A stretch of DNA of 63,646 nucleotides, filler included, from Octopus bimaculoides (GCF_001194135.2; 3 parts of 3 records of this genome joined end to end with filler, not necessarily neighbours in it); one strand, 5' to 3'; positions 7,441-37,910 are shown, counted from the first letter of the whole stretch. The notes: generated from the letters alone by a model not told the origin. Numbers and translations: made by a program.

Positions 7441-7444
<4 letters not shown>

Positions 7445-7630
7445 AAAAGAAAAACGACAAAAAACAACAACGTGAGGACGTGATACAGATTGTGTTACTG
7501 GACGCTCGGGAAAAGAAAGAAAGAGAATTTGATGTTTCGAGCGGAGCTCTTCGTCAGAAACATAGGACAGTCCAAAGAAGGGAAGACGGAGGAAGAAAAA
7601 ATCGCCAACGATATCCACGAGGTTACATTG
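7441..7630 (-). mobile_element. Short hammerhead-bearing element, family H1 (Penelope pLTR-like or retrozyme-like)
   Basis: Homologous to 36979-37140 and 33971-34030; ends directly in (TA)n at 7380-7440. Confidence 0.65.
7527..7561 (-). ncRNA. Minimal type I hammerhead ribozyme motif
   Basis: Minus strand reads GUUU-CUGACGA-A-GAGC(UCC)GCUC-GAAA-CA-UC/AAAU. The core is intact, helix II is 4 bp and helix I is 4 bp including one G-U. The helix III palindrome is broken (ACAU). Confidence 0.6.
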
Positions 7631-7635
7631 TGACA

Positions 7636-7670
<35 letters not shown>

Positions 7671-8240
7671 GTACACTGACATGCTAAAGTGAACCTTAAG
7701 TAAACACTTGAATTATCTCTCAATCTTCCTTTTATTTTACACTCCTGTTCTCATATAAGTCTTCCCTAAAGCAACATAAATATTAACTAGGTCTATAACA
7801 GTAACAAGAGCCATAATATGGTAGAAATAAACAGAAAACAAGTTATTGACATGTTGACTATTTCATCACACGTTTCAATAAACAATCATTTATAGACGAT
7901 TATGGTGTATAAATACAAAAATCTAATCGATCGTAATTGGTAAACTTCGACGTCTAAGTAATGGTTCAAATTTGATTAATCAATGATCTGATCTTCACCT
8001 AATGATATAGATCACAAGGTAAGCTGGTTAAATGGGTCAAGTTGTTTATTGTTCGATTTTTAGTAAAAACAATATGAAGTGTACATAAACGTACACTTGC
8101 ATAAGTATACACATGCCAATACAAGTACGTACGCTGATATAAACAAGTATGTGCATACATATATAAGTTGGTGTATTACTATATATAGATACACACACAC
8201 ACGCACGTGCATATATATACATGACTAATTGAACAAAATA

Positions 8241-8378
8241 CGCGTGGCTGTGTGGTAAGAAGCTTGCTTCACAACTACAAGGTTGCCAGTTTAGTCCCAT
8301 TGTGTGGCATCTCAGGTAAGTGTCTTCTATTGCAGCATAGTGAGTGGATTTGGTGGACGGAAACTGAAAGAAACCCAT

Positions 8379-8424
<46 letters not shown>

Positions 8425-8865
8425 NNNNNNNNNNNNNNNNNNNNNNNNNNNNNNNNNNNNNNNNNNNNNNNNNNNNNNNNNNNNNNNNNNNNNNNNNNNN
8501 NNNNNNNNNNNNNNNNNNNNNNNNNNNNNNNNNNNNNNNNNNNNNNNNNNNNNNNNNNNNNNNNNNNNNNNNNNNNNNNNNNNNNNNNNNNNNNNNNNNN
8601 NNNNNNNNNNNNNNNNNNNNNNNNNNNTGTGTGTGTGTGTGTATGTATTATGTTTGTGTGTGTGTCTGTGTTTGCCCCCCACCATCACTTGACAACCGAT
8701 GTTGGTGTGTTCACGTCCCCGTAACTTAGCGGTTCGGCAAAAGAGAACGATAGATTAAGTACTGGGCTTACAAAAATATGTACTGGGGTCGCTTTGTTCG
8801 ACTAAATGCGGTGATTCAGCATGGCCGCAGTCAAATGACTGAAACAAATAAAAGAAAAAGATATA
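8241..8865 (+). mobile_element. SINE family 1 spanning an N-gap inside its internal microsatellite
   Basis: Head GTGGCTGTGTGGTAAGAAGCTTGC at about 8245, central domain to 8380, (TA)n-gap-(TG)n, then tail CAGCATGGCCGCAGTCAAATGACTGAAACAAATAAAAG. Confidence 0.9.
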
Positions 8866-8904
8866 AAAATAAACTATGGGCTAGGAAGAAGGACACAAGG
8901 GATT

Positions 8905-10420
8905 GTTTTGATATACCCATGGATGCCCCAGACTCTGCACAAGTAACAGATTTAGTAGGAATATACTTATTATCTGAACTTGGATTAGAACACATTAACA
9001 TAGAAGGAGGACTTTATAGGGACAACCTACTCCTTATAACTAAAAACTGCACTAATAGATCATTAGAAAACATAAACAAAAAACTATACAAATTCTTTAA
9101 GAATTATGGTTTAGATATATTTATACAGAAAGAGCATTCTGCGGTTAACTACCTAGACACAAACCTAAACTTAGTAACTAATAAGACCCAGCCATTCCAT
9201 AAGTAAAACAAGAACCTTAAGTACATTAATGCCCATTGCAACCATCCTAGCTCAGTCAGAAAAGCACTAATAGACAATATAAGTAAAAGAATTTCTATGG
9301 TATCCTCGGATACAGATACTTTCAATAAACATACCCCTTACTATAATAGTGCATTAAAAGAAGCAGAATATTATTCATAGTTTAAATTCTTTAATAATTA
9401 CGGACCCAATAATAATACTAGCAAGCATCCTAACGCTCAGACCAACTATGGAAGTAATAGCAAAGATAATAATAAACAAGATAAAGAAATAAAGATAAAG
9501 ACAATATATGTATAAGTAAAAATAATAATAATGATTATAGTAAGGATAATACCCAAAATATTTCGAATAAAAATAAGCATAGTTATTATTTTACAATTTA
9601 CTAAAAGTATAGACGATAGTATTATAGAATATTTATGAATATTTTTAAAATCACAATAATTGTAACATTAATAATAATAATAAAAATAAACATAACAAGG
9701 AAATTATATGGTTAATTATCCCTTATGGGGATAAAATCAAAACTAATTTAAATGAAGAAATTCTGAACATAATAGAAGTATTCTTTAAAAAGAACAAAAC
9801 GTACTCGAAAATATTCTTCGACAAAACTATCAGAGTTGGCTATTCTACGACAAGGAATGTAAGTAATATTATATCCCCAGTAAACAATTTCAAATTAAAC
9901 AAATTCTATAATAACAATTTAACTAATATTAACATTACCTACGCAAGGACTATCACAAGCAATAAACATAACCGTATTTTAAATAAATGCACATGTAAGG
10001 ACAAATCCAAATGTAGGCAATAATAATTGCAACCTAGATAACGTAATTTATAAATGTATAGTAACCTATAATAATAATAATAAGCAGAAGAAGAAAGAAT
10101 ATATTGGATCCACAGCGAATGAAATTAAAAGAATTTCCCAGCATTATCAGTCTTTCAAAAATCGCAAATTAATAAATTCGACAGGTCTAAGTAAATACAT
10201 ATGGGAGTTGAAATCTAATAAAATAGAATACATCCTTAACTGGAATATCATTTGTAGAGCGAAGTCATATAGAATAGGTAATAAAACGTGTTTATTATGC
10301 ACAACAGAGTTTATGAAAATACTCCAGTCGAAAGAGTTATTACTGAACAGTATTGAAGAGAGAAGAACAAAATGCCGACATAGGAATATCTATACGTATA
10401 ATAAAATGAAAAATATATAA
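8905..10420 (+). mobile_element. 5'-truncated, decayed Penelope-like retroelement (RT C-terminal half, linker, GIY-YIG)
   Basis: FDIPMDAPDSAQVTDLVGIYLL, GGLYRDNLL (second catalytic Asp is Asn), VNYLDTNLNL, YINAHCNHP, YYNSALKEA, TIRVGYSTTRNV, KCTCKDKSKC..NNCNLDNVIYKCIV, EYIGSTANE, STGLSKYIWELKSNKIEYILNWNII, CLLCTTE..LLNSIEERRTKCRHRN. Multiple stops and frameshifts. Confidence 0.92.
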
Positions 10421-35884: not shown

Positions 35885-36389
35885 GCGCACACGCTCATAT
35901 ATTTATATACGTAGATGAAAAACCTATATTTTAAAAGTCATAACGAGTTAGTGATGTATATGTTTAGCTTTTATATTTGAGATTAAAAATGTAGGGTTAT
36001 GTTCTGCCCCTGTTGAGGAGCTCTTGTACCAACACAAACTTAAGACAAACATATTGCAGGAAAACATGAAAGACATCTGTTGAGACAGGCGAAGCGTGGG
36101 ATTAGAACACGTGTATGGATATAGAAGTGTGAATAAAGCAATAACTTTCTGCTCACCAACAACAAGTAAATATCACAACACCATCAACCCGAACAAGAGG
36201 AAGGAGAGAAGCCACAACAACAACAAGTGCAAAAAATAAAGAATAAAAACGAACATCCAACAACAGGGGTATTAGTATCGAGTAATGTAAGGTTCAGATC
36301 GCAGCTACTGATAAAGACAGCAGATAAAATCCGAGTTTTCAACATATTAATAACAAACAGCTGCTGAGAATATTTGATACGTTTTCAAC

Positions 36390-36448
36390 AGCAGCAACGA
36401 CAACAACAACAACCTAAGCAACAACAACAAAATCAGCGCAAGAACCAA

Positions 36449-36502
<54 letters not shown>

Positions 36503-36518
36503 TGTAATAATAATAATG

Positions 36519-36598
<80 letters not shown>

Positions 36599-36650
36599 GA
36601 AGAAGAAGAAGGAAGAGAAGAAGGAGAACAACAATAACAACAACGAAACT
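36390..36650. repeat. Compound (CAA)n-(TAA)n-(GAA)n-(CAA)n trinucleotide tract
   Basis: Direct reading; explains the poly-Q/N/K/E ORFs. Confidence 0.95.
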
Positions 36651-37070
36651 GTTTTCGAGCAACAACAAGCCAGCAAATCACCTTCTAAGCTGTTGTTCGA
36701 TATGTTGAAAAGAGCAAAGATGTCTCCCTCAAATCATAGACAAGTTTCAAGCGAAAGAAGCAGATTAGAGATACTGTTTGATTCTATGTCTTTCTTGTGT
36801 GTTCTCATACGAAGACACACACAAAGACACGCACACACAAACACGCACACATGCACACACACATTCTTCTATATATATATATATGTATATACATACATAA
36901 ATATATATGTGCATGTGTCTGCGCGTGTGCGTATGTGTACGCCCGTATGTGTATGTGTGTATATATATATATATATATGGGAGAATGTACGAAAAAAACA
37001 ACAACAGACGAGGACAGGTGGTGTAAACATCATAAGGATGTATTAGTATGATGCTCGGGAATACGGAAAG

Positions 37071-37107
37071 TCTTTAACGTTTCGAGCTACGCTCTTCAAC
37101 AGAAAGA
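37071..37107 (-). ncRNA. Minimal type I hammerhead motif with one core substitution, inside family H1 element 36979-37140
   Basis: UCUUU-CUGUUGA-A-GAGC(GUA)GCUC-GAAA-CG-UU/AAAGA. Perfect 5-bp helix I, 4-bp helix II, palindromic ACGU; core A6 is U. Confidence 0.6.
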
Positions 37108-37724
37108 ATACGGAGACAAGGAGAAAAACACGGAGAAAAAAAATTGAATAGTGTCCAGTCAGCGGTCAATCATAGTATATATATATATNNNNNNNNNNNN
37201 NNNNNNNNNNNNNNNNNNNNNNNNNNNNNNNNNNNNNNNNNNNNNNNNNNNNNNNNNNNNNNNNNNNNNNNNNNNNNNNNNNNNNNNNNNNNNNNNNNNN
37301 NNNNNNNNNNNNNNNNNNNNNNNNNNNNNNNNNNNNNNNNNNNNNNNNNNNNNNNNNNNNNNNNNNNNNNNNNNNNNNNNNNNNNNNNNNNNNNNNNNNN
37401 NNNNNNNNNNNNNNNNNNNNNNNNNNNNNNNNNNNNNNNNNNNNNNNNNNNNNNNNNNNNNNNNNNNNNNNNNNNNNNNNNNNNNNNNNNNNNNNNNNNN
37501 NNNNNNNNNNNNNNNNNNNNNNNNNNNNNNNNNNNNNNNNNNNNNNNNNNNNNNNNNNNNNNNNNNNNNNNNNNNNNNNNNNNNNNNNNNNNNNNNNNNN
37601 NNNNNNNNNNNNNNNNNNNNNNNNNNNNNNNNNNNNNNNNNNNNNNNNNNNNNNNNNNNNNNNNNNNNNNNNNNNNNNNNNNNNNNNNNNNNNNNNNNNN
37701 NNNNNTATATATATATATATGTAT

Positions 37725-37910
37725 ATATTGTTGTATTTCAGGATGGTCATTTTTCTGGCTAAATACACACACACACTCTATATTTGTTTTTCACTTGTTT
37801 ATTAGAGTTCTCAATTTTTTTTTTCAATTTTAACTCATGTCCATTGTCCGGAAATCTTTCATCACACATCTGTGACCTCTTCAGCGACACTTTTCGCTTT
37901 CGTGTGTGCT
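37725..37910 (-). mobile_element. Family H2 short element, single copy, ending in (TA)n
   Basis: The end TATTGTTGTATTTCAGGATGGTCATTTTT is shared with 14715-14742. Confidence 0.7.
37845..37889 (-). ncRNA. Minimal type I hammerhead ribozyme motif
   Basis: UGUCG-CUGAAGA-G-GUCACA(GAUG)UGUGAU-GAAA-GAUU-UC/CGGACA. Core intact, 6-bp helix II, helix I of 5 bp with one bulge. Confidence 0.6.

What the first reader, a model, noticed from the sequence alone, without database searches (positions are those of the whole stretch)
7441..37910. Several short hammerhead-ribozyme elements, most ending in (TA)n: retrozyme-like or Penelope-pLTR-derived non-autonomous families
Seen: minimal type I hammerhead folds at 7527-7561(-), 37071-37107(-), 37845-37889(-) and 30391-30431(+), with decayed ones at about 14953-14995(+) and 14826-14868(-). 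They fall into at least three unrelated sequence families (H1, H2 and the 30.4-kb element). In H1 and H2 the element stops about 90-125 nt after the predicted cut, in or beside TA repeats. These motifs have an extra nucleotide after CUGANGA, and all have a tiny, usually palindromic helix III (ACGU, CAUG, GAUU near GAUC). Established: such minimal, probably dimer-cleaving hammerheads mark Penelope-like element pLTRs and retrozymes, and an extra base after A9 is tolerated in natural hammerheads. Inference: these are ORF-less, self-cleaving, TA-targeted retroelements mobilised by the Penelope-like RT/GIY-YIG machinery whose relics sit in the same window. They may also seed the (TA)n gaps of this assembly.
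Basis: partly seen in the sequence, partly recalled or inferred. Interest (0 to 1): 0.75.

Follow-up and report, generated by a model that had tools for sequence, protein, structure and literature searches.

The report
Penelope stumps with altered hammerhead cores
The hammerhead-shaped RNA motifs are real, but two of the three families are stump-sized tail ends of protein-coding Penelope-type jumping genes (the third is a likely non-coding retrozyme), and the commonest one has reached an estimated tens of thousands of copies with altered catalytic letters that likely weaken its self-cutting (untested).

Summary
All six motifs are present and belong to high-copy families. H1 and H2 are not ORF-less families. 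Walked upstream, they join reverse-transcriptase/GIY-YIG frames of Penelope-like elements (12 of 30 and 17 of 30 ORF loci carry the end downstream). They are 3' pseudo-LTR stumps, mostly in (TA)n. H2 shows the known inverted-pair-plus-tail layout. Many H1 copies stop at one fixed point about 200 nt from the 3' end, probably the transcript start. Only the 30.4-kb element (H3) is a non-coding ~346-nt tandem unit, retrozyme-like, and only weakly TA-linked. The part worth keeping is H1's core. One whole clade carries A6U (CUGUNGA): 97 of 100 listed out of 3,841 exact matches, none with A6. A second young lineage carries U4C, a third a GUG cut site. Helix II and the palindrome are kept, and 0 of 10 unbiased copies have a canonical core. 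This fits the in vitro result that cutting is dispensable for insertion. Cleavage and circular RNA are not shown. The scan already noted these stumps and retrozymes elsewhere in this genome, and A6U cores in two other genomes.

The parts
7440..7632 (-). H1a: ~195-nt 3' pseudo-LTR stump of a Neptune/Nematis-type Penelope-like element; begins at the family's fixed start site, ends in (TA)30 at 7380-7439
   Evidence: linkage to GIY-YIG end in L205, L211, L217
7527..7561 (-). H1a minimal hammerhead; predicted cut after 7531; family core CCGACGA (U4C), this copy CUGACGA and ACAU likely by CpG decay
36976..37177 (-). H1b: ~200-nt pseudo-LTR stump of a related, younger lineage (96-98% identical copies), TA on both sides
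37071..37107 (-). H1b minimal hammerhead with A6U core (CUGUUGA), 5-bp helix I, palindrome ACGU, predicted cut after 37076 (GUU)
37728..37945 (-). H2: 5'-truncated 3' end of a second coding Penelope-like family; canonical core CUGAAGA, predicted cut after 37851; ends at the short 3' end, in TA
14718..14908 (-). Decayed H2 arm (short 3' end), left half of a head-to-head inverted pair
14900..15142 (+). Decayed H2 arm carrying the optional ~55-nt tail, right half of the inverted pair, ending in (TA)n at 15144
30310..30655 (+). H3: complete ~346-nt non-coding unit, retrozyme-like; hammerhead at 30391-30432 with predicted cut after 30426, extended helix I (about 30357-30464), 3' terminal hairpin; a solo monomer here
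33971..34029 (+).
8859..10710 (+). Hydra-like Penelope-like relic (RT part, GIY-YIG, start of 3' UTR), broken off before its own hammerhead; not the parent of H1 or H2

Best explanation
H1 and H2 are the 3' pseudo-LTR ends of protein-coding Penelope-like retrotransposons, likely written into (TA)n by the element's own endonuclease and reverse transcriptase from uncleaved RNA; H3 is a separate non-coding ~346-nt tandem unit, likely copied in trans by such enzymes. Shown: linkage to RT and GIY-YIG frames; fixed 3' ends in TA; an optional tail and inverted pairs (H2); a fixed 5' stop about 200 nt from the 3' end (H1); altered cores fixed in whole H1 lineages (A6U, U4C, GUG) with helix II and the ACGU palindrome kept; end-to-start junctions and no ORF in H3. 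Inferred: the 5' stop is the transcript start (an initiator-like TCATT/GCATT motif), so ~200-nt copies are run-off products when reverse transcription starts at the upstream pseudo-LTR of a coding RNA. Also inferred: the altered H1 hammerheads cut weakly or only with protein help, and the fold is kept as a dimerising or protein-binding element with cutting turned down.
For: H1b end downstream, same strand, in 12 of 30 loci found with the endonuclease DNA. H1a endonuclease end in 3 of 30 upstream loci, with end and hammerhead ~2 kb apart in one locus, L217. H2 end downstream in 17 of 30 ORF loci. The ORFs resemble RVT_1/HTH_animal clusters at 0.95-0.96; the H1 frame has a CX4CxxC linker and CCHH-type endonuclease, as PMC8557442 describes for Neptune/Nematis. 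5' ends lie within -6..+12 nt of the CATT site in 14 of 28 and 12 of 17 copies, and only 5 and 4 go further; 6 of 12 in an evenly spaced sample (read by eye). Long and short H1b copies are not separated on a tree. Position 6 is U in 97, C in 3, A in 0 of the first 100 listed of 3,841 matches (reversed control 0), while position 7 is U41/G35/C14/A10 (counted by hand). A6U is one clade, 100/100. All 20 other motif columns are identical between the H1a and H1b majorities, both from identity-based searches, at 41% flank divergence. PMC11167929 (parts 1-2 of 4 read) reports internal RT initiation, tails, and insertion unaffected by hammerhead mutants. H3: end-to-start junction in 14 of 25 copies, inverted pieces in 14 of 25, no other shared flank; longest ATG frame 48-65 aa; fold z -4 to -8.
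Against: No intact full-length master or complete pseudo-LTR-ORF-pseudo-LTR copy was found; all ORFs seen are broken. The transcript start was not mapped, and RNA reads show no pile-up of ends. The long/short tree is star-like, so amplification from solo pseudo-LTRs is not excluded. Pfam gave no passing match for 7 ORF pieces. Conservation inside the A6U clade is partly forced by my search patterns; the unforced set is 16 copies found by their tails (U6 in 14, C in 2, A in 0). H3 has no sequence link to any Penelope-like end among 110 ORF loci, only 1 of 25 loci has two hammerheads head-to-tail, and within-family covariation is weak (10 of 500 shuffles as high; 4 of my 33 pairs were out of register).
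Confidence: 0.75

Rival explanations
1. Solo H1 pseudo-LTRs carry their own internal promoter and amplify on their own as SINE-like, non-autonomous ~200-nt elements.
For: Discrete ~200-nt size class in every H1 lineage. Short copies far outnumber ORF-linked ones (3 of 12 extend past the start site). Penelope's promoter lies inside the pseudo-LTR (PMC2377424, passages). Li et al. 2026 propose this route to retrozymes.
Against: Short and long copies share subfamily marks and intermingle. No H1-only multimers were seen. RNA reads lie in both directions equally and about 60% run into unlike flanks.
Confidence: 0.2
2. The A6U and U4C cores are fully working natural variants, and cutting (as dimers, with protein help) remains essential to these lineages.
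For: In the A6U clade position 7 varies freely and position 17 is A, U or C, never G, in 30 of 30 pattern loci, as a cutting ribozyme would require. Natural A6C and U4C variants keep low activity (PMC3088659, passages).
Against: A sister lineage has fixed a GUG site (4 of 5 copies), and a U4A+A6U lineage exists (6 of 100). The copies span the cut site, so they came from uncleaved RNA. Changes at position 6 lower activity, and cutting was dispensable in vitro.
Confidence: 0.25
3. The H1 hammerheads are dead relics drifting neutrally inside successful lineages; the kept letters are kept for a DNA-level or unrelated reason.
For: Three independent core departures; 0 of 10 unbiased copies canonical; no RNA ends at the cut.
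Against: 20 of 20 other motif columns are kept across 41% flank divergence, loop 2 varies while helix II does not, and helix I keeps pairing with different letters.
Confidence: 0.12
4. H3 is the pseudo-LTR of an unseen coding element, not a non-autonomous unit.
For: It shows Penelope-type insertion scars (inverted pieces, partial tandems). The C.A pair closing helix II is shared with the hammerhead of a Hydra-like coding family here. My 25 loci were chosen for full-length matches.
Against: In all 25 loci the only shared flanking sequence is more of the unit itself. A 70%-identical older relative has the same end-to-start junction (L264). No match to the ends of 110 ORF loci.
Confidence: 0.2

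Closest known systems
Minimal type I hammerheads in pseudo-LTRs of metazoan Penelope-like elements (Cervera and de la Pena 2014, PMC4209133; parts 1-2 of 4 read)
   Same: Type I layout, 4-5 bp helix I, extra base after A9, G10.1-C11.1, palindromic helix III; mostly single motifs from truncated elements; opposite-strand pairs 100-700 bp apart.
   Different: In the parts read, the only core variant described is U3-A8. Here whole lineages carry A6U, U4C or a GUG site, and helix II of H1 is 4 bp, not 7-8.
EN+ Penelope-like elements of the Neptune/Nematis type (Craig et al. 2021, PMC8557442, passages and Hydra section; Arkhipova et al. 2013, PMC3846280, passages)
   Same: RT, CX2-5CxxC linker, C-terminal GIY-YIG; ~200-nt pseudo-LTR with an initiator-like motif; inverted 5'-truncated copy; optional tail; microsatellite bias.
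   Different: Very long low-complexity 3' UTRs (about 2 kb, CA-rich, in H1a); an estimated ~47,000 stumps, most of one length; a tail of ~55 nt in H2. Clade not fixed by a tree.
Poseidon element of the green anole in vitro (Frangieh et al. 2024, PMC11167929; parts 1-2 of 4 read)
   Same: Two 3' ends (tail), AT-rich targets, copies made from uncleaved RNA, no RNA-seq ends at the cut.
   Different: That work used engineered core mutants; H1 offers natural lineages with altered cores beside canonical siblings.
Metazoan non-LTR retrozymes (Cervera and de la Pena 2020, PMC7229834, parts 2-3 of 6; Li et al. 2026 preprint 10.64898/2026.07.22.740005, parts 1-3 of 5)
   Same: H3: ~346-nt non-coding, strongly self-paired unit with a type I hammerhead of canonical helix I size, head-to-tail junctions, beside autonomous Penelope-like elements; mussel units are 350-390 bp, and an axolotl family also has a mismatch at the base of helix II.
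   Different: H3 occurs mostly as 1 to 1.4 units, not long arrays; circles and cleavage are not shown; no parent element found.
Natural hammerhead core variants (Perreault et al. 2011, PMC3088659, passages)
   Same: U4C (viroid) and A6C (phage) are natural and weakly active.
   Different: A6U is not among the passages seen, and those were single cases, not lineages of thousands of copies.

Membership tests
Minimal PLE hammerhead (H1, H2) | Type I layout with helices I and II and palindromic helix III | tested here: met
Minimal PLE hammerhead (H1, H2) | Extra nucleotide between A9 and G10.1, with G10.1-C11.1 | tested here: met
   A in H1; G in 28 of 30 H2 copies
Minimal PLE hammerhead (H2) | Core CUGANGA / GAAA / UH | tested here: met
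   CUGAAGA 21 of 30 (plus 1 CUGAGGA), UC 27 of 30
Minimal PLE hammerhead (H1a, H1b lineages) | Core CUGANGA | tested here: not met
   H1b CUGUUGA 25 of 25; H1a C4 in 27 of 30; canonical sibling lineages exist, 775 exact matches. Filed as core variants.
Minimal PLE hammerhead (H1, H2) | Lies in the terminal repeat of a Penelope-like element | tested here: met
Minimal PLE hammerhead | Self-cleavage as dimer | not testable with these tools
   No end pile-up in fragmented cDNA reads, which cannot decide it
EN+ Penelope-like element, Neptune/Nematis type (parents of H1, H2) | RT followed by C-terminal GIY-YIG in one frame | tested here: met
   Broken frames in L056, L260, L252, L316, L323; RT look-alikes; Pfam silent
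EN+ Penelope-like element, Neptune/Nematis type | CX2-5CxxC linker and CCHH motif | tested here: met
   Clear in the H1 parent (L253, L263); decayed in the H2 parent (L323); read by eye
EN+ Penelope-like element | 5' truncation, inverted copy, optional tail | tested here: met
   H2: inverted upstream copy 6 of 30, tail 11 of 30; window pair 14718-15142
EN+ Penelope-like element | Intact full-length partial tandem (pLTR-ORF-pLTR) | tested here: inconclusive
   Not found in 3-kb loci of a gapped assembly
Neptune versus Nematis clade | Placement in an RT tree with reference elements | not tested
   No reference sequences at hand
Non-LTR retrozyme (H1, H2) | Non-coding unit repeated head-to-tail, not part of a coding element | tested here: not met
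Non-LTR retrozyme (H3) | 170-400 nt non-coding unit with a type I hammerhead | tested here: met
   346-350 nt; CUGAUGA in 25 of 25; longest ATG frame 48-65 aa
Non-LTR retrozyme (H3) | Tandem of at least two complete hammerhead units | tested here: inconclusive
   Partial tandems 14 of 25; two hammerheads head-to-tail in 1 of 25, L070
Non-LTR retrozyme (H3) | Highly self-paired monomer | tested here: met
   z -4.0 to -7.9 against 100 shuffles of letter pairs, two copies
Non-LTR retrozyme (H3) | Abundant circular RNA | tested here: inconclusive
   507-746 reads per ~12 million, both directions, 75-78% run into flanks; junction reads also expected from DNA tandems
Hydra clade (window relic 8859-10420) | C-terminal endonuclease lacking CCHH, with CxxC and CxH around the conserved E and N; hammerhead in the 3' end | tested here: met
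   Motifs read by eye; family hammerhead ~900 nt past the ORF; no tree

The most novel reading that the evidence does not exclude
The dominant Penelope-like lineages of this genome have turned the hammerhead into a structurally kept but catalytically attenuated switch: three independent core changes (A6U, U4C, GUG) mark the lineages that outgrew their canonical siblings, because slower cutting leaves more whole RNA for internally primed reverse transcription. With A6U noted in two other animal genomes, CUGUNGA would be a widespread hammerhead class invisible to standard descriptors.
Probability: 0.3. Interest if true: 0.72.

Novelty: new variant of a known kind. Interest (0 to 1): 0.45.

Why it matters
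What hammerheads do for Penelope-like elements is stated as unclear in PMC8557442 and PMC4209133, and one in vitro study found cutting dispensable. H1 gives a ready natural series inside one element family: canonical, U4C, A6U, U4A+A6U and GUG lineages with the same helix II and palindrome, each with many copies. Cleavage rate can be set directly against amplification success. It also means CUGANGA-based counts miss most motifs of this family (0 of 10 unbiased copies canonical). The rest (stumps in TA, a retrozyme-like unit) extends known kinds to another mollusc-like genome and is ordinary.

Tried and rejected
Rfam: no hammerhead family matched. The repeat finder was swamped by microsatellites. 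My first descriptor needed a looped helix III and found 1 of 4 sites. The window's own RT/GIY-YIG relic as parent of H1/H2/H3: rejected; in 50 loci of its family the few H1/H2 matches were separate insertions, and its ends carry different hammerheads. The 5' stop as a splice acceptor: rejected by eye, since H1a and the 4-nt-loop lineages have no AG there. Elements seeding the gaps: rejected. No RNA holder was listed as such for H3. Raw reads of a coded species label (90-99% alike, possibly a relative) show both families in RNA but no ends at the cut or start; fragmented, apparently unstranded cDNA cannot show them. Pfam and PDB found nothing for the parent ORFs. H3 covariation count was weak and partly mis-registered. 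Literature searches for the A6U core and six terms in the supplement of PMC8557442 found no such Penelope variant. Lunse et al. 2017 on Penelope hammerhead variants was not available. The figure supplements of PMC4209133 and PMC3088659 and the bioRxiv supplements were not seen. Any of these may already show A6U. The even genome sample stayed at 60 of a planned 100 stretches.

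
Full report
Setting. The window is a pack of three stretches from a 2.34-Gb animal genome rich in microsatellites. 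It is probably an octopus; this rests on recall and on earlier notes of this scan, not on a test. The motifs lie on two of the stretches (G000 C9 and C7).

Observation. All six motifs are at the stated places. A descriptor tuned on them finds 2 strict and 4 relaxed sites, against 0.00 and 0.05 in 60 shuffles. Rfam has no matching model, and the short motifs fold no better than shuffles. Their reality therefore rests on family evidence. Each belongs to a family with thousands of first-look candidates. In 60 evenly spaced 10-kb stretches (505,607 non-N bases) there are 12 H1 copies, 5 H2 pieces at 3 places and 1 H3 copy. My extrapolation for H1 is about 47,000 copies (Poisson range about 24,000-82,000).

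H2 is the end of a coding element. Copies extend upstream to different lengths. L056 runs into a broken frame with RT thumb, linker and GIY-YIG endonuclease. Of 30 loci found with that ORF DNA, 17 carry the H2 end downstream on the same strand. A 395-aa piece resembles RVT_1/HTH_animal clusters at 0.95. Of 30 H2 copies, 11 have an extra ~55-nt tail and 6 an inverted upstream copy. The window's pair at 14718-15142 is such a head-to-head structure, with the tail on one arm. This layout is described in PMC8557442 and PMC3846280 (passages). The H2 core is canonical.

H1 is also the end of coding elements. Walking upstream from H1b reached a frame with a CX4CxxC linker and a CCHH-type GIY-YIG. Of 30 loci found with that DNA, 12 carry the H1b end downstream; many of the others break into gaps. 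For H1a the endonuclease end lies beyond about 2 kb of CA-rich UTR: 3 of 30 loci reach it, and L217 holds both it and the hammerhead. The linker points to Neptune or Nematis (PMC8557442); no tree was made. The relic in the window is Hydra-like, and its family ends in a different hammerhead.

A fixed 5' stop. H1 copies are not cut at random. Among 30 H1b copies chosen by their last 109 nt only, 14 are 192-199 nt long. In two pattern-chosen sets, 14 of 28 and 12 of 17 copies begin within -6 to +12 nt of a conserved CATT, and only 5 and 4 go further (2 and 3 of the 30 and 20 loci were dropped as unplaced or gap-bound). In the even sample 6 of 12 begin there (by eye). RNA depth rises 4-7-fold across this point, partly because the reference diverges upstream. 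The site resembles an initiator (motif recalled). Penelope's promoter and start lie inside the pseudo-LTR (PMC2377424, passages), and rotifer pseudo-LTRs are 193-218 nt with an initiator-like motif. Reverse transcription in a purified Poseidon element starts inside the RNA and uses uncleaved RNA (PMC11167929). I infer run-off copies: priming at the upstream pseudo-LTR of a coding RNA and falling off its 5' end. Amplification from solo copies is the rival. Long and short H1b copies intermingle (12 changes, 12.0 shuffled; 37 copies; star-like tree), which favours a coding master but has little power.

Altered cores. H1b reads CUGUUGA in 25 of 25 copies, and H1a has C at position 4 in 27 of 30. 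The window's H1a copy looks canonical only through a likely CpG decay. A pattern with positions 4, 6 and 7 free and a 4-nt loop has 3,841 exact matches (reversed control 0). In the first 100 listed, position 6 is U 97, C 3, A 0; position 7 is U 41, G 35, C 14, A 10; position 4 is U 93, A 6, C 1 (counted by hand). Canonical cores total 775 for both loop sizes, and only 5 of the first 100 have the 4-nt loop. On a tree of 54 of 121 copies (up to five per cluster), A6U is one side of a 100/100 branch with sub-lineages 20-29% apart. U4C and a GUG-site lineage (4 of 5 copies) are nested among canonical ones on the other side (midpoint root, so direction is inferred from the general hammerhead consensus). 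Between H1a and H1b, both found by identity, all 20 other motif columns are the same at 41% flank divergence. Loop 2 varies and helix I keeps 4-5 pairs with different letters in 7 of 8 clusters. Sixteen copies found by their tails alone have U6 in 14, C in 2, A in 0, and all extend through the cut site. In the even sample 0 of 10 copies with a motif are canonical, and 2 further copies start downstream of the cut. In RNA reads no other letter reaches 15% at the core, while 66-75% read GUC rather than GUU. Against simple decay: position 17 is never G in 30 A6U loci. Natural A6C and U4C variants cut weakly (PMC3088659). My reading is a kept fold with cutting turned down (about 0.6); this is untested.

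H3. The unit is 346-350 nt. In 14 of 25 loci the end of one unit precedes the start of the next, 14 have inverted pieces, and no other flank is shared. It has no long frame and no match to the ends of 110 ORF loci. It folds strongly, with a long extended helix I. Helix II is closed by a C.A mismatch. Two older relatives change the palindrome centre from CAUG to CUAG, and one keeps the same junction at 70% identity. Within-family covariation is weak. TA follows the end in only 7 of 25. RNA reads look like read-through from host transcripts; junction reads (16-40 per run) do not prove circles. It works like a non-LTR retrozyme (PMC7229834; Li et al. 2026); arrays and circles are not shown.

Gaps. 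14 of 18 gaps have a TA edge, 3 adjoin these elements, and the window holds 74 TA runs. The elements use TA runs; nothing here shows that they make them.

Verdict. The motifs are real, and the broad kind is known. The part that is not ordinary is the series of altered cores in H1. I did not find A6U in print, but the most relevant paper (Lunse et al. 2017) and several figure supplements were not seen. Two unreviewed notes of this scan report A6U in other genomes, and others report such stumps and a ~340-350-nt retrozyme in this genome. Novelty: new variant of a known kind. Interest 0.45.

Noticed in passing
window 33971-34029 (+): A further H1a-type 3' stub ending in TA, its upstream part hidden in the gap 33389-33970.
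   Followed up: yes
window 8859-10710 (+); L089-L097, L100-L110: Hydra-like Penelope family (11,947 first-look candidates for its endonuclease). Its hammerheads have a long helix II with a large loop, closed by a C.A or U.U mismatch, and an 8-nt palindrome.
   Followed up: partly
window 3660-3836 / 3887-4048 and about a dozen other places: Very common two-part repeat (about 175 nt and 155 nt, often separated by microsatellite).
   Followed up: no
window 27283-27667, 35518-35884, 47472-47857, partial 28954-29132 and 48031-48156: A ~385-nt repeat at 80-92% identity, without a hammerhead by my descriptor.
   Followed up: no
window 58971-59017 (-): Histone 3' stem-loop-like Rfam hit, 32.8 bits, just under the cut-off of 34, next to a copy of the 175-nt repeat.
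   Followed up: no
even sample L361-L420: Other hammerhead families: three copies with a 6-bp helix II and GUU site, and two U4C-type cores with 8-nt palindromic helix III.
   Followed up: no
window 55196-55711 (+), 53340-53654 (+), 6295-6564 (-): Frames that by eye resemble a non-LTR ORF1/endonuclease start and a mariner-type transposase piece; Pfam gave no passing match.
   Followed up: partly
L034 (G000:C5:53730537-53733758), L007: H1 copies inserted directly at the 3' end of an H2 copy or of another H1 copy, suggesting shared target use.
   Followed up: no
window 45828-45962: A long inverted repeat made of microsatellite arms, the top Rfam hit by shape only.
   Followed up: no
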